A DNA stretch of 64,000 nt. Origin: Candidatus Woesebacteria bacterium RIFCSPHIGHO2_02_FULL_42_20. Lineage in GTDB: Bacteria; Patescibacteriota; Microgenomatia; UBA8517. The stretch spans positions 7,155-71,154 of the forward strand of contig MGGS01000002.1 of the NCBI GenBank assembly GCA_001792535.1, written 5' to 3'. The notes beneath the pieces were generated by a model. The model saw only the letters and a program-made list of their open reading frames with translations, was not told where the DNA came from and made no database searches. Both the position numbers and the translations under genes were made by a program. Within the stretch, counting starts at the first letter, position 1, and every line of letters starts with the position of its first letter. Below are positions 17,490 to 44,790 of this stretch, piece by piece.

Positions 17490-17927
17490 CTAATAATTAC
17501 CACCCTGAAAATACATTTTAGGAGTAATGACTTTTATCGGCTTAATAAATTTCTCAACTTTTTCATTCAAAAAGTGTTTTCTGTCCAATGTAAATAGACA
17601 ACCTGACTTTGATACTTTCGCTTGAGACAAAATAACTGCATCCTTTTTAACAATAACCATTTTTGCCTTTGAAATGTCTCTAACATTTGGTTCGATATCC
17701 AATATTATTAGTTTTTCAACTAGCCTGAAAAATCTACCAAGATGATAGCTTTCAAGTTTGTGTCTTACGTTTCTTTCAACTTCCGCCAGGACAACCTTCG
17801 AGGTGACTAACTTTAGTCCGCGGATTGTAAAAAGCTTCGATCACCCACCTGTTGGGGAATAGACAGCGGAAAATAGAACACTTGAATCAAGAAAAGCGAT
17901 TTTTAAAGCTCGTCTTCTTTTAGCCAT
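17490..17927 (-). pseudogene. PIN-domain (VapC-like) toxin gene interrupted by an in-frame TGA at codon 29
   Basis: ATG at 17927 overlaps antitoxin 3' end; MAKRRRALKIAFLDSSVLFSAVYSPTGG-TGA(17843-17841)-SKLF...CLFTLDRKHF; both halves are PIN-like (N-terminal FLDSSVL, C-terminal TLDRKHF) in the same frame. Confidence 0.55.
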
Positions 17928-18166
17928 TCTTTAATCTCGGAATTGGGAAAAATACGGGTATATTTGGAAAGCCTTGGGTCGATATAAGTTTTACCAAAAA
18001 CTTTTGCCACAGCCTTTCGCAGTCTGTCCAAATAATTTATGTCAACAATGGCAGCTTTAGCATTGCCTCCCTTTGTCAATATAAAATATTTCTCGCCCGA
18101 GACTTTCTCTGCTAATTCCCCCAGTATGCTTCTTGCCTTGGTGACAGGAATGATATTCATAACCAA
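17903..18166 (-). CDS. Phd/YefM-family antitoxin
   Basis: 87 aa; IPVTKARSILGELAEKVSGEKYFILTKGGNAKAAIVD matches Phd/YefM N-terminal fold; a PIN ORF follows with overlap. Confidence 0.7.
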   Translation of the reverse strand: MVMNIIPVTKARSILGELAEKVSGEKYFILTKGGNAKAAIVDINYLDRLRKAVAKVFGKTYIDPRLSKYTRIFPNSEIKEWLKEDEL

Positions 18167-21506: not shown

Positions 21507-21603
21507 GACAATTCAAATATATTTATAAAAAGTGTTGAAATCTGTGGGAGCAGAAGATATAAAAAGACTTAAAATTATTTGGTCGTATCCTCCGAAGTCT
21601 TGT

Positions 21604-21849
21604 TTACTGGTACAAGATGCATCGCACTCCTGACTTTCTGGTGCCGTTGGCTTTCATTCCGGTACATCTTTTGGCAAACTCTCCAATTTCGGTTCCTTCA
21701 TCTTTGTCCGGCCCGAGTGGGTCGGTTACCACAGCCGAACAAGTCGGGCAGACCCGACAAACATTTATTGTGTTAAACCTTGTACTTGCAAAAAGTTCTT
21801 GGATCCTCTCCATTCTCGTGCCTTGATTCATTTCTTTAGCCCTAGTCAT
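21604..21849 (-). CDS. small Cys-rich (zinc-ribbon-like) protein of unknown function
   Basis: 81 aa; CRVCPTC ... C ... C; strong SD GAGGGGG 1-2 nt before ATG. Confidence 0.45.
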   Translation of the reverse strand: MTRAKEMNQGTRMERIQELFASTRFNTINVCRVCPTCSAVVTDPLGPDKDEGTEIGEFAKRCTGMKANGTRKSGVRCILYQ

Positions 21850-21894
21850 ACCCCCTCGTTTATACTATATGGATATAATACTACATTTTCCACT

Positions 21895-23721
21895 CTATTG
21901 ATATCCCTTTGCCTGGATTGTAAAGAGCTCGTGGTAAAGCCCCCCGAGTTTCATAAGCTCGTCATGCGTTCCGCTCTCGGTGATTCTGCCTTTGTCCAAC
22001 ACAAAAATCCTGTCCGCGTATCGGACAGTAGAAAACCTTTGCGACACGAAAATAAGTATTTTGTCTTTAGTTTTCTTGAGAAGCTCTCTAAATATCTGTT
22101 CCTCAGCCTTAGGATCGACGTTACTTGTCGGTTCATCCATTATCAAAATATCGGCATTTTTACGAAATAACATTCTGGATATCCCAACTCTTTGCCATTG
22201 GCCGATTGAAAGATCCACTCCTTTGTCAAACTCCGGTGCCAGAGGGTGTTTATATTTAAGTGGCAGTGTTTCAATAAACTTATCAATCGTGGTTTTATGC
22301 GCCGCTTCTTTTATCTGACCTAACTTATTTACCCTTGAGATATCCCCATAACCGATTGACTCCTGGGCAGTAAAAGGATAACTTTCAAACTTCTGAAAAA
22401 GAATTGCAAGACGTCTGCGGTATGAACCAAGATTAAAATCTTTAAGATCGCTCCCAGCGACAACTATTTTCCCTTTTTCAGGATCATAGAACCTGGCTAA
22501 AAGTTTAATTAAAGTCGATTTACCCGCGCCGTTTTCGCCGACCAAAGCAATTTTTTCTCCGGGATTAACGTGCATATTAACTCCCTTTAAAATCCAATTT
22601 TTGCTTTTCGGATAGCGAAACCAGACATTTTTGGCCTCAAGAGAAAGCCGTTTATACGAGTAGGCGTTTTTGCCGGTTTTGGCTTTTTCATTTATCACAG
22701 GCTTAAGATTTAGAAACCAAATCAGATCAACGACATAAATATAATTTTCATAAATTTCCAAAACTGAATTGACCAGTCCTGTCAAGTTGCTTTCAGCTGA
22801 CCTGAGGGAACGGAGGTAAAGCTCGAAAGAGCCTATTGTAATTTTTTCTGTAATTACCAAAAAAATCAGCCAGACCGAAACAGCAAATTCATAGAAAGTA
22901 AGAGGCAGGAAAGTACCAAAATTAGACAACTCCCGTTTTTTGGACAGCTCCATTTGTTTATCTATGGTCTCGCTTTGAATACTTTTAAGCTTTTTAGTTA
23001 AATAGCCGGATATGCCAAGAATTTTAAGTTCCAAAAAATTTTTGTTACGGACCAAGTAATAGGTAAGCCAGCCCCACATACGGTATTTTGCCGAGAGTGC
23101 GGTTTCAAGCTCATACTCTTTTTTGATATACTTGCCGCTAACGAAAAATTGGGGAAGCGAAAAAACAAGCACACCCAAGGCAATTAATGGGTGAAGTAAA
23201 ATTAAAATGCCGACTACAGAAATAAAACCGATTAAATAATTTGAAATATCACTTAAAGGCATCATTAAGCCCCATGCGCGCCTCCCTGATTCTCTTTCGA
23301 TTTTTGTATATTTATTTTTGAAATCCGGGTCATCAATAGTTGCAATATCCAACTCGGTCATCTTTTTTGCCATCATAATCTCGAGCTCGGAGGCAAAGGT
23401 TTGGGACATTTTGCGACTTAGGAAGCCGTTTACCCGGCTTAAGACATTTCGAAAAAGTTCCAAAAGAAGCCTTAGAAAGATAATTCCGCCGATAAGATAC
23501 ATGGCTTGCCTCCAATTTGGGTCGCCAATTGAGGCAATTAGGTTATCAAGAATAAGCTTTTCCAGATAAAACCCGGGGGCGGTGGAAAATCCCCAAATGG
23601 CGTTTAAAATAAGAACTAGTACCAGAAATTTTCTGTTGGTTTTTGCAGCCAAGCGCACCACTTCACGAAAAACAAAAAACACCTGTCCAAAACGATCGAA
23701 GGTAATTCTTGGCTTCTGCAC
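21895..23721 (-). CDS. ABC exporter, fused permease + ATPase (MsbA/multidrug type)
   Basis: 608 aa; six TM region then NBD with Walker A GENGAGKST, signature LSIGQWQRV, Walker B ILIMDEPTS. Confidence 0.9.
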   Translation of the reverse strand: MQKPRITFDRFGQVFFVFREVVRLAAKTNRKFLVLVLILNAIWGFSTAPGFYLEKLILDNLIASIGDPNWRQAMYLIGGIIFLRLLLELFRNVLSRVNGFLSRKMSQTFASELEIMMAKKMTELDIATIDDPDFKNKYTKIERESGRRAWGLMMPLSDISNYLIGFISVVGILILLHPLIALGVLVFSLPQFFVSGKYIKKEYELETALSAKYRMWGWLTYYLVRNKNFLELKILGISGYLTKKLKSIQSETIDKQMELSKKRELSNFGTFLPLTFYEFAVSVWLIFLVITEKITIGSFELYLRSLRSAESNLTGLVNSVLEIYENYIYVVDLIWFLNLKPVINEKAKTGKNAYSYKRLSLEAKNVWFRYPKSKNWILKGVNMHVNPGEKIALVGENGAGKSTLIKLLARFYDPEKGKIVVAGSDLKDFNLGSYRRRLAILFQKFESYPFTAQESIGYGDISRVNKLGQIKEAAHKTTIDKFIETLPLKYKHPLAPEFDKGVDLSIGQWQRVGISRMLFRKNADILIMDEPTSNVDPKAEEQIFRELLKKTKDKILIFVSQRFSTVRYADRIFVLDKGRITESGTHDELMKLGGLYHELFTIQAKGYQ

Positions 23722-23763
23722 TTTCTTATTATAAACTTAATGAAGCTAAATAGTCAGTTACTA

Positions 23764-24159
23764 TTTAGTTGTGGTCAAAAGCAAGAGGTGGAATTTCTTT
23801 CAAATCAAACCATTTTATCTCTGAAACATCATCACTTGGGTGAGGGACACCATTAACCTCAACTCTATAAACAACAGTTATCACCTGTTTCTCGTGTCTT
23901 TTGGGGTCTCAATATACATTAAAAAGCTGGAGAGCTTTCACACTAAGACCTGTTTCCTCTTTTAGTTCTCTTCTTACAGCGTCTTCAGGCGACTCACCCC
24001 ACTCGACATAGCCACCAAAAATTCCCCAGTACGCGCCGAAGGGGTCATATTTTCTTTTCCCAAGAAGTATTTTCCGCCCTTGATAATTAGACAGTCTATG
24101 GAAATGCCACGATTGTTAAATCTGCCACAATGTGGGCAGGGCTCACTTCTTGATAACAT
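23764..24159 (-). pseudogene. Nudix hydrolase gene disrupted by a -1 frameshift in a poly-A run (~24055-24058) and an in-frame TGA (~23909-23911)
   Basis: frame 1: MLSRSEPCPHCGRF..CLIIKGGKYFLGK; frame -1: RKYDPFGAYWGIFGGYVEWGESPEDAVRRELKEETGL (perfect Nudix box GX5EX7REUXEEXGU) ...LFNVY-TGA-DPKRHEKQVITVVYRV...EIKWFDLKEIPPLAFDHN; a fifth A in gggaaaag restores ...FLGKRKYDPF. Confidence 0.6.
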
Positions 24160-25378
24160 CTTTTCCAATCCACTTTCTCAACACTTCCGGGACAACGACC
24201 GATCCGTCTTTTTGCTGGTAGTTTTCGAGAATTGCCAAGGGCGTTCTGGAAGTAGCGATAGCCGTCCCATTGAGCATGTGGACATAATCAGTTTTTCCGT
24301 CTTTGGTCCGATATTTAATATTTAAGTTTCTGGCCTGATAGTCTGTGCAATTTGACGTTGAAGTTACTTCGCCATAATCATCCCGGCTCGGCATCCAAGC
24401 CTCAATGTCAAATTTCCTGGCAGCCATTGCGCCCAAATCCCCCGTGCACATCTCCAAAACCCGGTAAGGCAGCCCCAGCTCTTGATAAATTTCCTCTTCC
24501 ATCTTTAGTAAATACTCATGCATTTTATTGGATTCTTCAGGGATGCAGTAAATAAACATTTCGGCTTTTGTAAATTGGTGGACTCGGTAAATTCCTTTTG
24601 AGTATTTGCCATACGCCCCCGCTTCTTTCCTAAAACAATGAGAGTAGCCGATATATTTTAATGGTAATTTGTCTTCGGGGATAACTTCGTCAGCGTGCTT
24701 GCCAGCCAGGGTCACTTCTGCCGTGGCAATAAGCCCCAAGTCCTCATCTTTAATTTCATATGTTTGGGCCTCGTCACCTTTGGGCATATAGCCTGTGCCA
24801 AGGTAATACCTTGATTTAGCCAAATCGGGCGTGATTACTGGCAAAAAACCTTCTTTGGTAAGTTTATCAAAGGCGTAGTGAATTAATGCAAGTTCCATTA
24901 AAGCCCCGTCGCCGTATAAATAATAAAACTGCGAGCCAGCGACCTTCGCACCTGTTTCAAAGTCCAAAATTCCTAAAGCTTTTCCGAGTTCCAAGTGATC
25001 TTTAGGTGCAAAGTTAAATTTTTTTGGTTCTCCCCATTTTCTGACTTCAACGTTGTCTTTTTCGTCTTTGCCAACAGGAACCATGTCCAAAGCTGGATTG
25101 GGAATTAAGTTTAAAGCATTAAAATAGTTCTTTTCGGCTTTATCGAGTTCTGGTTCCTTTTTTTTAAGCTCCTCTTTAACTTGCTTACCGGCTACAATGT
25201 TTTTTGATTTTGCAATTTCATTCCTCTCTGCTCTCAAAGTTTCAATTTCGCCAATAAGTTTTCTGCGCCTTTCATCGATCTCAAGGAGTTTGTCTACCAA
25301 CGAAGGATCCATTTGTTTATCTTTAACTGCCTTTTTAAACTTTCCTGGATCTTCTCTAAGTAATTGAATATTAATCAC
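24143..25378 (-). CDS. serS: seryl-tRNA synthetase
   Basis: 411 aa; N-terminal coiled-coil arm, class II motifs; GTG start with TATAAT 6 nt upstream; TGA stop. Confidence 0.93.
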   Translation of the reverse strand: MINIQLLREDPGKFKKAVKDKQMDPSLVDKLLEIDERRRKLIGEIETLRAERNEIAKSKNIVAGKQVKEELKKKEPELDKAEKNYFNALNLIPNPALDMVPVGKDEKDNVEVRKWGEPKKFNFAPKDHLELGKALGILDFETGAKVAGSQFYYLYGDGALMELALIHYAFDKLTKEGFLPVITPDLAKSRYYLGTGYMPKGDEAQTYEIKDEDLGLIATAEVTLAGKHADEVIPEDKLPLKYIGYSHCFRKEAGAYGKYSKGIYRVHQFTKAEMFIYCIPEESNKMHEYLLKMEEEIYQELGLPYRVLEMCTGDLGAMAARKFDIEAWMPSRDDYGEVTSTSNCTDYQARNLNIKYRTKDGKTDYVHMLNGTAIATSRTPLAILENYQQKDGSVVVPEVLRKWIGKDVIKK

Positions 25379-30055: not shown

Positions 30056-30316
30056 TTAAAACTTGTATATTCCGCCTCTGTAGCCAACTTTTCGGATCCA
30101 AATTTCATTTTTAGTTTTGTCGGCTTCAAATAATGCTCTAATTCTGCCCGATCTCAATCTGAAGAAGCTATTTACGCCGGAAATTGGCTTTATATCCAAA
30201 TTATTTGGGAAAGGGTAAGTCAGTTTAGAAACTTTTTGGAGTGTGTTTTTAACGTCTTTTTTTGCAATTTTTTCTAAATCTTTTTCTGCTTTTGAAGTAA
30301 AGAAGACGCTATACAT
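30056..30316 (-). CDS. RelE/ParE-family toxin
   Basis: 86 aa; FRLRSGRIRALFEADKTKNEIWIRKVGYR matches RelE/ParE C-terminal core; overlaps upstream antitoxin by 8 nt. Confidence 0.75.
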   Translation of the reverse strand: MYSVFFTSKAEKDLEKIAKKDVKNTLQKVSKLTYPFPNNLDIKPISGVNSFFRLRSGRIRALFEADKTKNEIWIRKVGYRGGIYKF

Positions 30317-30575
30317 ACTTTTTGAGTATCTTCTCTAGTGGAATTCCCTTTCCTCTTTTCACTTTAAACAACTTTTCTGCCTCACTCTGATCTCTACGGT
30401 CCTCGAGCAGCTCCTGTAGGAGTATAAACTCGTTGAGATTAAGAATAACAGCTTTTGGTTTAGATCTGTGGAAAATATAAGCCAAGCCTTCATTTTCGAC
30501 CTGCTTTAAGAGTCCAAGCGCGTTCTCGCGCATATCGGTTATAGTTTTGACATTCTTTAATGTTGGTATTAACAT
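30309..30575 (-). CDS. Phd/YefM-family antitoxin
   Basis: 88 aa; TITDMRENALGLLKQVENEGLAYIFHRSKPKAVIL. Confidence 0.75.
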   Translation of the reverse strand: MLIPTLKNVKTITDMRENALGLLKQVENEGLAYIFHRSKPKAVILNLNEFILLQELLEDRRDQSEAEKLFKVKRGKGIPLEKILKKYV

Positions 30576-44325: not shown

Positions 44326-44790
44326 TCACACTACTCCATTCATTCTGAGTTTGGCGAAGAGTGATTTTGCCTGTGATTGTGGAAGTTTAACTGAGGGTAT
44401 TAGCCCCAGCTTTTCAAGGCTGGCTTTAAGCCCAACGGAATTTTTTACAATAGGATCACCAGTTTTTATCCATTTGTACGCTTGAGACTCCCCTTCATCA
44501 ATTTTTAGTTTTGATTCATTAGCTATTTTTATAAGTGAAGTAATGACGACCCATCTAATTTTCCCGCTGTCCACCCAGAAAGGTTCTGTAGTTTTTATTA
44601 TTTTTCCCACCAAATTGGTTTCTTCTTTTAATTCTCTAAGTGCAGCTTCTTCCGCTGACTCTCTATCTTGGATGTAACCTGTAACGCAATTCCATTTATC
44701 AGGGCTTGAGCGGTGTTTTGCGCGCTGGAGAACTAATGCTTCACCCTTTTTGTTAATTGCAATTGCGTGAACTGTCACATAAGTTTTCAT
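44326..44790 (-). CDS. Nudix hydrolase
   Basis: 154 aa; Nudix box GYIQDRESAEEAALRELKEETNL. Confidence 0.85.
   Translation of the reverse strand: MKTYVTVHAIAINKKGEALVLQRAKHRSSPDKWNCVTGYIQDRESAEEAALRELKEETNLVGKIIKTTEPFWVDSGKIRWVVITSLIKIANESKLKIDEGESQAYKWIKTGDPIVKNSVGLKASLEKLGLIPSVKLPQSQAKSLFAKLRMNGVV

What the first reader, a model, noticed from the sequence alone, without database searches (positions are those of the whole stretch)
23764..24159. Nudix hydrolase gene with a homopolymer frameshift plus an in-frame TGA
A perfect Nudix box (GGYVEWGESPEDAVRRELKEETGL) and the conserved C-terminal region are present on the minus strand, but the N-terminal 38 codons are in another frame. The shift maps to a GGGAAAAG run (~24055-24058); adding one A gives ...KGGKYFLGKRKYDPFGAYWGIFGG, a textbook Nudix N-terminus. 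A TGA then interrupts LFNVY-TGA-DPKRHE. The start also overlaps the serS 3' end. Two lesions imply a decaying gene, or low-quality sequence in this stretch.
Basis: seen in the sequence. Interest (0 to 1): 0.5.

Follow-up and report, generated by a model that had tools for sequence, protein, structure and literature searches.

The report
Recently dead Nudix hydrolase gene
This is an ordinary, recently inactivated Nudix hydrolase gene in a groundwater Woesebacteria (candidate phyla radiation) genome, broken by a one-base deletion and two premature stop codons that recur identically in five other assemblies, so it reflects real gene decay and not bad sequence.

Summary
Window 23729..24159 (minus strand) is the remnant of a ~143-codon Nudix hydrolase gene. 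Once repaired, it matches Pfam NUDIX in one stretch (E 1.4e-23). It is 76-77% identical to intact 143-146 aa proteins from related Microgenomates/Woesebacteria, and those loci share the serS–Nudix–ABC arrangement.

There are three lesions, not two:
- A 1-nt deletion in the GG/AAAA run at 24070..24075. The repair gives KGGKILLGKRK, which matches the conserved motif.
- GGA(Gly)→TGA at 23909..23911.
Eleven conserved codons and the ancestral TAA follow it in frame.

Poor sequence quality is excluded. The exact 438-nt remnant occurs in five other assemblies (three JGI metagenomes, one ENA assembly, one NCBI MAG). All large housekeeping genes in the window are intact.

TGA is a normal stop here: 16 of 45 long ORFs end in it. 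I found no SECIS element, no frameshift-stimulating structure and no Rfam hit. The remnant shows no rate acceleration and has dN/dS 0.13-0.17, so the gene died recently.

In passing I found a second TGA-interrupted gene, a PIN toxin at 17841..17843. Low interest.

The parts
23729..24159 (-). Whole ancestral Nudix hydrolase coding region, now a pseudogene: 143 codons minus one base, including the ancestral stop TAA at 23729..23731.
   Evidence: The repaired translation hits PF00293 at E 1.4e-23. It is 76-77% identical to the intact proteins P0001 and P0002.
24070..24159 (-). N-terminal 30 codons (MLSRSEPCPHCGRFNNRGISIDCLIIKGGK). They are in a different frame from the rest of the gene and carry the family's invariant CPHCG..NR motif.
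24070..24075 (-). Lesion 1: a 1-nt deletion in the GG+AAAA run. Homologues have GGGAAAA or AGAAAGA here. Adding one base restores KGGKILLGKRKYDP.
   Evidence: The gap column in DNA alignments A2 and A3.
24055..24061 (-). After the upstream deletion it happens to lie in X_XXY_YYZ phase. It is not the lesion: homologues have the same bases there, encoding LGKRK.
   Evidence: The downstream fold has z -0.44.
23945..24013 (-). Nudix box GYVEWGESPEDAVRRELKEETGL (GX5EX7REUXEEXGU), intact at the codon level. No ORF of 25 codons or more with an ATG/GTG/TTG start is listed in its frame.
   Evidence: The ORF list shows no such ORF in that frame between 23912 and 24115.
23909..23911 (-). Lesion 2: an in-frame TGA where the three closest homologous proteins have Gly (Ser or Thr in more distant ones). 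The codon is GGA in the four loci (L001-L004) encoding the two closest, P0001 and P0002. This is one G→T change.
23765..23767 (-). Lesion 3: a premature TAA that removes the last 11 codons, which form the conserved C-terminal IIxDY segment.
   Evidence: The segment aligns to FDHKKIILDFLK of PDB 2yyh.
23726..23764 (-). Orphaned C-terminal tail IVTDYLASLSL, still in frame, followed by the ancestral double stop TAA TAA.
24143..25378 (-). Seryl-tRNA synthetase gene, intact. Its last 17 nt overlap the Nudix start. It ends in TGA, as in the relative L002.
21895..23721 (-). ABC transporter gene (608 aa), intact, starting 7 nt after the ancestral Nudix stop. The same gene is the downstream neighbour in relatives.
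23728..23757 (-). Promoter-like site (CTGACT-18-TATAAT, 10 of 12 matches) inside the remnant's tail, just upstream of the ABC start. It is a consensus match only.

Best explanation
The region is a recently inactivated Nudix hydrolase gene, fixed in a Candidatus Woesebacteria (Microgenomates, CPR) population. The ancestral gene encoded about 143 aa. It overlapped the end of serS by 17 nt and was followed by an ABC transporter gene.

Three independent mutations destroyed it:
- loss of one base in a short GG/AAAA run after codon 30;
- a G→T change turning Gly codon GGA into TGA at codon 84;
- a substitution creating TAA 11 codons before the natural stop.

Translation from the original ATG would end after 61 residues without reaching the Nudix box. 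No ORF of 25 codons or more with a start codon is listed in the frame holding the Nudix box, so no functional Nudix protein can be made. The DNA is now a 421-nt spacer between serS and the ABC gene. It is probably still transcribed with them, but that is inferred and not shown.

Shown: the lesions, their reproducibility across assemblies, the homology and the shared gene order. Inferred: that the lesions are neutral decay after loss of selection, the order in which they arose, and the lost enzyme's substrate. The substrate is unknown; sources annotate homologues as ADP-ribose pyrophosphatase or as 8-oxo-dGTPase.
For: - Homology across all lesions: PF00293 at E 1.4e-23 in one stretch. Intact homologues at 76-77% identity and E 1e-64.
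- Lesions mapped base by base against four intact genes.
- Conserved gene order serS(17-nt overlap)–Nudix–…–ABC in L001, L002 and L005.
- The exact 438-nt remnant is found in L007, L008 and L009 (JGI), L019 (ENA) and L020 (NCBI GCA_001792415.1). In the serS look-up, 24 contigs carrying an identical serS were read; the two loci shown have no gene called in the gap, and the other 22 were flagged as having mostly the same neighbouring genes.
- TGA is a genuine stop: 16 of 45 long ORFs end in TGA, and serS ends at the same TGA as its relative.
- Recent death. dN/dS against intact homologues is 0.13-0.17, compared with 0.125 between two intact ones. Identity to 14 outgroups is about the same as for the intact P0001 and P0002. 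The remnant deviates at only 1 of 37 highly conserved columns.
- No ORF of at least 25 codons with a start codon covers the Nudix box.
- An intact Nudix paralogue exists at 44326..44790.
- Pseudogenes are reported at about 5-10% of genes in two compared Parcubacteria (CPR) MAGs (seepage water 4.9%, groundwater 9.4%), and to be more frequent in groundwater than in seepage CPR MAGs generally (PMC11188291).
Against: - Apart from the three lesions, the sequence looks as good as a functional gene: no excess missense change and all invariant residues kept. Two nonsense substitutions among few neutral changes is mildly unlikely. Nonsense changes make up 5.5% of possible substitutions, giving P about 0.03-0.14 for 5-12 substitutions. 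This is not significant once one allows for ascertainment, and the C-terminal TAA may have been tolerated before the gene died.
- After the deletion, an X_XXY_YYZ heptamer (G_GGA_AAA) lies in the right phase to restore the frame by a -1 slip, so some leaky expression cannot be ruled out formally.
- All matching assemblies probably derive from the same aquifer population. They show that the lesions are real and fixed there, not that they are old.
Confidence: 0.93

Rival explanations
1. Sequencing or assembly error: the gene is intact in the organism, and the lesions are artefacts of a low-quality stretch such as a homopolymer miscall.
For: One lesion lies in a short homopolymer context (GG/AAAA). 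No reads were available to inspect.
Against: - The identical 438-nt sequence with all three lesions occurs in five other assemblies from three sources (JGI, ENA, NCBI).
- Two lesions are base substitutions.
- A4 and G2 runs are too short for typical homopolymer errors (established knowledge).
- All long housekeeping genes in the window are intact.
Confidence: 0.02
2. Recoded, still-expressed gene: a -1 ribosomal frameshift (at A_AAA_T 24069..24073 or at the in-phase G_GGA_AAA heptamer 24055..24061) combined with UGA read-through or reassignment (Gly, Trp or Sec) yields a near-full-length Nudix enzyme that tolerates the C-terminal truncation.
For: - The G_GGA_AAA heptamer is in X_XXY_YYZ phase in the N-terminal frame. 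A -1 slip there gives KGGKYFLGKRKYDP, only 2 residues different from the ancestral sequence.
- The TGA replaces a Gly codon, and UGA=Gly is known in other CPR lineages (Gracilibacteria and Absconditabacteria, code 25; established knowledge).
- A second gene in the window, a PIN toxin, also has a single in-frame TGA and is otherwise intact.
- The remnant shows no excess missense change.
Against: - Homologues are plain single ORFs. They carry the same heptamer bases in a different phase simply because they encode LGKRK, so the phase here is a by-product of the deletion.
- There is no stimulatory structure downstream of the heptamer (z -0.44), no SECIS-like hairpin after the TGA (z -0.02), and no Rfam hit even at E≤1.
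- TGA terminates 16 of 45 long ORFs, including serS at the conserved position.
- The two in-frame TGAs replace different residues: Gly in the Nudix gene and an invariant Ser (TCA) in the PIN gene. No single reassignment fits both.
- Aligned residues are Gly, Ser or Thr and never Cys, which argues against Sec.
- Two or three low-efficiency events in series would give negligible product.
Confidence: 0.03
3. The remnant has been taken over for another role, for example as a promoter or leader region for the downstream ABC transporter, or as the source of a short N-terminal CPHCG peptide of 61 aa. Under this reading it is maintained, not decaying.
For: - A promoter-like CTGACT-18-TATAAT (10 of 12 matches) lies at 23757..23728, just upstream of the ABC start.
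- The 61/64-aa N-terminal ORF is open.
- The sequence is invariant among the assemblies.
Against: - Promoter-like matches in the region are not clearly above the shuffled expectation: 3 found against a mean of 1.4, sd 1.4.
- Invariance among the assemblies reflects one population, not conservation.
- After codon 30 the 61-aa product is out-of-frame sequence with no homologues.
- There is no structured-RNA signal.
Confidence: 0.02

Closest known systems
Intact Microgenomates/Woesebacteria Nudix hydrolases P0001 (143 aa) and P0002 (146 aa); the latter is also encoded in Candidatus Woesebacteria bacterium RIFCSPHIGHO2_01_FULL_39_23, MGGH01000001.1
   Same: 76-77% amino-acid identity over the full length, the same N-terminal CPHCG..NR motif, the same Nudix box and the same AFDH..DY C-terminus. 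P0001's gene overlaps serS by the same 17 nt, and the ABC transporter lies downstream.
   Different: Those genes are uninterrupted. The window copy has a 1-nt deletion, a TGA and a premature TAA. Those loci also carry an EamA-family gene between the Nudix and ABC genes, which the window lacks.
PDB 2yyh, Aquifex aeolicus Nudix protein deposited as '8-oxo-dGTPase domain'
   Same: It is the best solved-structure match (E 1.2e-20). The alignment covers the Nudix box, the DPxR segment across the TGA position (Ser in 2yyh), and the C-terminal FDHKKIILDFLK that corresponds to the tail after the premature TAA.
   Different: The aligned stretch starts at query residue 31, so the N-terminal CPHCG segment falls outside it. 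The substrate of the window's family has not been tested. JGI names some homologues 'ADP-ribose pyrophosphatase YjhB' and others '8-oxo-dGTP diphosphatase', and no NCBIfam equivalog cut-off is reached.
Pseudogenes in CPR/Patescibacteria genomes undergoing genome reduction
   Same: A frameshift plus nonsense lesions in an accessory gene, alongside apparent loss of a neighbouring gene. One study reports pseudogene fractions of about 5% (seepage) and 9-10% (groundwater) in two compared Parcubacteria (CPR) MAGs (PMC11188291).
   Different: Nothing substantive. This copy is unusually fresh: it shows no detectable rate acceleration.
Programmed -1 ribosomal frameshifting (dnaX-type, X_XXY_YYZ heptamer plus a downstream structure)
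   Same: A G_GGA_AAA heptamer lies in the correct phase within the region where both frames are open.
   Different: There is no downstream stimulator above chance, the frameshift is not conserved in any homologue, and an additional in-frame TGA lies downstream.

Membership tests
Nudix hydrolase superfamily (Pfam PF00293) | Profile match above the curated gathering score | tested here: met
   The repaired translation scores 83.8 bits against a cut-off of 21.1, E 1.4e-23, in a single stretch covering residues 22-128.
Nudix hydrolase superfamily (Pfam PF00293) | Nudix box GX5EX7REUXEEXGU | tested here: met
   GYVEWGESPEDAVRRELKEETGL at 23945..24013 fits every fixed position.
Nudix hydrolase superfamily (Pfam PF00293) | A single uninterrupted ORF able to encode the whole fold, i.e. 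a functional member | tested here: not met
   There is a frameshift at 24070..24075, a TGA at 23909..23911 and a premature TAA at 23765..23767. No ORF of 25 codons or more with a start codon is listed in the Nudix-box frame. It is therefore a pseudogene of the family, not a working member.
Specific Nudix subfamily (MutT 8-oxo-dGTPase, NudC, ADP-ribose pyrophosphatase) | Reaching an NCBIfam equivalog cut-off | tested here: not met
   The best scores are 41.7 bits (MutT, cut-off 148) and 41.6 bits (NAD+ diphosphatase, cut-off 158). The substrate class is undetermined.
Bacterial pseudogene (decaying gene) | Disabling lesions relative to intact orthologues in the same gene neighbourhood | tested here: met
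   Three lesions were mapped against four intact genes, and the serS and ABC neighbours are shared.
Bacterial pseudogene (decaying gene) | The lesions are real and not sequencing errors | tested here: met
   The exact 438-nt remnant is present in 5 other assemblies from JGI, ENA and NCBI. Read-level data could not be tested here.
Bacterial pseudogene (decaying gene) | Relaxed selection (raised dN/dS or accelerated rate) | tested here: not met
   dN/dS is 0.13-0.17 against 0.125 for an intact pair, and there is no loss of identity to outgroups. This is expected if the gene died very recently, and it does not contradict pseudogene status.
Programmed -1 ribosomal frameshift | Slippery X_XXY_YYZ heptamer in phase | tested here: met
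   G_GGA_AAA at 24055..24061 is in the N-terminal frame. The same bases occur in intact homologues in another phase, where they encode LGKRK.
Programmed -1 ribosomal frameshift | Downstream stimulatory structure | tested here: not met
   The 70 nt downstream fold at -20.1 kcal/mol, z -0.44 against shuffles. No Rfam frameshift element is found at E≤1.
Programmed -1 ribosomal frameshift | The frameshift is conserved among homologues | tested here: not met
   All 16 closest homologues are single ORFs.
UGA reassignment (genetic code 4 or 25) or selenocysteine insertion | UGA used in frame throughout the genes and not as a terminator | tested here: not met
   16 of 45 long ORFs end in TGA. A scan for stop-interrupted ORF pairs flagged only two in-frame TGAs that interrupt a gene.
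UGA reassignment (genetic code 4 or 25) or selenocysteine insertion | SECIS hairpin after the UGA and Cys/Sec at the aligned position in homologues | tested here: not met
   The fold has z -0.02 and there is no Rfam hit. The aligned residues are Gly, Ser or Thr.
UGA reassignment (genetic code 4 or 25) or selenocysteine insertion | Absence of RF2, or presence of a tRNA with anticodon UCA | not testable with these tools
   The window holds no tRNA genes, and none of the ORFs scanned against Pfam was a release factor. Testing this needs the whole genome.

The most novel reading that the evidence does not exclude
The Nudix gene and the PIN toxin gene 6 kb away are both conditionally expressed through low-level UGA read-through. 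For the Nudix gene this would be combined with a -1 slip at the in-phase G_GGA_AAA heptamer. That would make this Woesebacteria population an example of regulated or leaky UGA suppression outside the CPR lineages known to reassign UGA. The evidence does not strictly exclude it: both genes are otherwise pristine, and neither the tRNA set nor RF2 could be examined.
Probability: 0.02. Interest if true: 0.6.

Novelty: new member of a known kind. Interest (0 to 1): 0.1.

Why it matters
It matters little beyond annotation. The 421-nt 'intergenic' stretch between serS and the ABC transporter gene in this Woesebacteria population should be annotated as a Nudix pseudogene with three lesions. Together with the nonsense-mutated PIN toxin, and the absence of the EamA-family gene that related loci carry next door, it is a small, well-dated snapshot of ongoing gene loss in a CPR genome.

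There is also a practical caution. Gene callers that switch to genetic code 4 on short metagenome contigs turn such pseudogenes into apparently intact database proteins. P0116 is an example: it reads Trp at the TGA.

Tried and rejected
Rejected. Intact homologues have the same bases there, and the alignment gap is at 24070..24075.
- **Programmed -1 frameshift at G_GGA_AAA.** The heptamer is in phase, but there is no stimulatory structure, no conservation in homologues and no Rfam element.
- **Selenocysteine or UGA=Gly/Trp.** Rejected on stop-codon usage, the lack of a SECIS element, and the different residues replaced in the two TGA-interrupted genes.
- **P0116 as an intact strain variant.** The 99%-identical 'intact' PIN protein P0116 first looked like a strain with a sense codon. 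Its contig L018 carries the same TGA, and the look-up reports that the gene does not translate to the protein under code 11. The Trp therefore appears to be an artefact of code-4 gene calling.
- **Intermediate alleles with only one or two lesions.** I found none.
- **The window's own genome among GTDB species representatives.** It is not there. Only a 76%-identical relative was returned.
- **Rfam on the whole window and on the two non-coding stretches.** No hits. The window also holds no tRNA genes.
- **Relative-rate and dN/dS tests for relaxed selection.** No signal, which I read as recent inactivation.
- **Scan for further stop-interrupted genes.** The only candidates were the Nudix and PIN cases. 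Frameshifted genes elsewhere in the window were not searched for systematically.

Full report
**What is there**

On the minus strand, a 421-nt stretch with no long ORF lies between the seryl-tRNA synthetase gene and an ABC transporter gene. serS occupies 24143..25378 (Pfam tRNA-synt_2b plus Seryl_tRNA_N). The ABC gene occupies 21895..23721.

Three-frame translation shows the following:
- an N-terminal piece, MLSRSEPCPHCGRFNNRGISIDCLIIKGGK..., in one frame, starting at ATG 24157..24159;
- the rest of a Nudix domain in the -1 frame: ...KILLGKRKYDPFGAYWGIFGGYVEWGESPEDAVRRELKEETGLSVKALQLFNVY;
- a TGA at 23909..23911, followed by DPKRHEKQVITVVYRVEVNGVPHPSDDVSEIKWFDLKEIPPLAFDHN and a TAA at 23765..23767.

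The Nudix box at 23945..24013 fits GX5EX7REUXEEXGU exactly. The joined translation hits Pfam NUDIX at E 1.4e-23 in one stretch across the lesions. No NCBIfam equivalog cut-off is reached, so the substrate class is open.

**Relatives**

A search of 5.8 billion proteins found intact 143-146 aa homologues at 76-77% identity (P0001, P0002; E about 1e-64). A clade of about 16 Microgenomates proteins (Roizmanbacteria, Gottesmanbacteria and others) lies at 47-56% identity.

Their loci show the same neighbourhood. In L002 the upstream gene is serS, and the Nudix start overlaps it by 17 nt, as in the window. In L001 and L005 the ABC transporter follows, after an EamA-family gene on the other strand. 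L005 is from Candidatus Woesebacteria bacterium RIFCSPHIGHO2_01_FULL_39_23, so the window comes from a Woesebacteria-like CPR organism.

**Mapping the lesions**

1. The missing base is not in GGGAAAAG (24055..24062), where homologues have the same bases encoding LGKRK. It is in GGCGGAAAATAC, the GG/A4 run at 24070..24075. Restoring one base gives KGGKILLGKRKYDP, which matches the family consensus KILLGKR. Both frames are open between the two sites, so the sequence alone could not decide.
2. The TAA at 23765..23767 is premature. Homologues continue with NTIIKDYLRKIRV or similar. The window reads IVTDYLASLSL in frame after the TAA and reaches TAA TAA in the same alignment columns as the homologues' stop. 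The corresponding C-terminal segment is part of the aligned region of the closest solved structure, PDB 2yyh (FDHKKIILDFLK; E 1.2e-20).

The TGA aligns with Gly in the three closest homologous proteins, and with Ser or Thr in more distant ones. In the four loci (L001-L004) that encode the two closest, P0001 and P0002, the codon is GGA. This is a single G→T change. The gene therefore carries three disabling lesions.

**Error or real?**

A metagenome scan returned three JGI contigs (L007-L009) that are 100% identical to the window across the remnant.

A look-up of the exact serS protein listed it in 46 blocks of the collection, and 24 contigs were read. The two loci shown, L019 (an ENA assembly) and L020 (NCBI MAG GCA_001792415.1), have no gene called between serS and the ABC gene, and the other 22 were flagged as having mostly the same neighbouring genes. 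Both shown loci are 100% identical to the window over 5-6 kb.

The exact 438-nt string from the Nudix ATG to the ABC start occurs in all five contigs. Two lesions are substitutions, and the runs at the indel are only 2 and 4 bases long. Elsewhere in the window, SecA (911 aa), PNPase (767 aa), FtsK (706 aa), IF-2, NusA, LysRS, SerRS and the 1103-aa and 1272-aa ORFs are uninterrupted.

I therefore reject poor sequence quality. These assemblies probably sample one aquifer population, so they show the lesions are real and fixed there, not that they are ancient.

**Recoding?**

TGA is a normal terminator: 16 of 45 non-overlapping long ORFs end in TGA, and serS ends at the same TGA as its relative.

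After the upstream deletion, the bases G_GGA_AAA (24055..24061) fall in X_XXY_YYZ phase. A -1 slip there would restore the frame with only two residue changes. Several results argue against this:
- the 70 nt downstream fold no better than shuffles (z -0.44);
- the 67 nt after the TGA show no SECIS-like hairpin (z -0.02);
- Rfam gives nothing even at E≤1;
- no homologue is frameshifted.

Serial low-efficiency events would give negligible product. I rate recoding at about 3%.

**Age**

dN/dS between the repaired remnant and the intact homologues is 0.13-0.17, against 0.125 between the two intact genes. Identity to 14 outgroup proteins is about the same for the remnant (mean about 0.52) as for P0001 and P0002. 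The remnant deviates at only 1 of 37 columns conserved in at least 15 of 16 homologues, and that deviation is a conservative I→V after the premature TAA.

Inactivation is therefore recent relative to the divergence from any sampled relative. Nonsense changes make up 5.5% of possible substitutions in this gene. Two of them among few neutral changes is mildly unlikely (P 0.03-0.14 for 5-12 substitutions). That is unremarkable given ascertainment and the possibility that the C-terminal truncation was tolerated earlier.

**Consequence**

Translation from the original ATG ends after 61 residues, 31 of them out of frame. No ORF of 25 codons or more with an ATG/GTG/TTG start is listed in the frame holding the Nudix box. 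No Nudix enzyme can be made from this locus.

An intact Nudix paralogue lies at 44326..44790 (PF00293, E 7.6e-16) and might cover the function. That is an inference.

The window also lacks the EamA-family gene that sits between the Nudix and ABC genes in L001, L002 and L005, with no tblastn trace of it. This is consistent with local gene loss. The direction of that change is not established.

**Context and verdict**

One study of CPR genomes reports pseudogenes at 4.9% and 9.4% of genes in two compared Parcubacteria MAGs, from seepage water and groundwater respectively, with more in groundwater CPR MAGs generally (PMC11188291). Here about 2 of roughly 65 genes in the window are affected. The other is a PIN toxin with a single TCA→TGA change.

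The finding is a correct spot of an ordinary, fresh pseudogene. The frameshift position and the number of lesions needed correcting. Interest is low.

Noticed in passing
window 17490..17927 (-), TGA at 17841..17843: A second TGA-interrupted gene. It is a 145-codon PIN-domain (VapC-like) toxin downstream of a Phd/YefM-like antitoxin (17903..18166) and reads ...SPTGG-TGA-SKLF.... All aligned homologues have Ser at that position, and the Woesebacteria relative L005 has TCA. The gene is otherwise intact. The same TGA is present in ENA contig L018.
   Followed up: yes
L018:43-480 (protein P0116): Database protein P0116 looks like an intact 99%-identical PIN protein with Trp at the TGA position. The look-up reports that the gene does not translate to the protein under code 11, and the DNA has TGA. 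This appears to be a code-4 gene-calling artefact on a short metagenome contig, and it masks a pseudogene.
   Followed up: yes
window 23722..23747 compared with L001:883-1791, L005:1861-2781 and the L002 3' end: Relatives carry a ~300-aa EamA-family transporter gene on the opposite strand between the Nudix and ABC genes. The window has no trace of it: only 7 nt separate the ancestral Nudix stop from the ABC start. Whether this was a loss here or a gain elsewhere was not resolved.
   Followed up: partly
window 21507..21894: A 388-nt stretch between two convergent genes with no convincing ORF and a locally G+C-rich, repeat-like core (…GGCCCGAGTGGGTCGG…GTCGGGCAGACCCGAC…). There is no Rfam hit at E≤1 and no Pfam hit for its 81-aa ORF. 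It could be an undescribed structured RNA or another gene remnant.
   Followed up: partly
window 24100..24159 (-) and alignment A1: Every member of this Microgenomates Nudix clade has an invariant N-terminal CPHCG-x3-NR motif ahead of the Nudix fold. This is a single CxxC 'half zinc knuckle'. It lies outside the region aligned to the closest solved structure (2yyh), and its role is unknown.
   Followed up: no
L009 relative to window 24943..24998; L007:2433-2919; L008:1-595: JGI contig L009 lacks 56 nt inside serS, which would shift the frame. L007 and L008 switch abruptly to sequence that matches nothing in the window. These are probably assembly chimeras or strain variants. The Nudix remnant itself is identical in all three.
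   Followed up: partly
window 44326..44790 (-): An intact 154-aa Nudix paralogue (PF00293, E 7.6e-16), about 38% identical over the 52-residue stretch around the Nudix box. It could compensate for the lost gene.
   Followed up: partly
window 30056..30575 (-): An intact small toxin-antitoxin pair: a ParE-like toxin (30056..30316) and a Phd/YefM-like antitoxin (30309..30575). This pair and the PIN/Phd module fill two of the larger apparent gaps in the gene map.
   Followed up: partly
window 23728..23757 (-): A promoter-like site, CTGACT-18-TATAAT (10 of 12 matches), lies inside the dead gene's tail. Its -10 element is built from the ancestral TAATAA stop region, 7 nt upstream of the ABC transporter's GTG start. 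It is a consensus match only.
   Followed up: no
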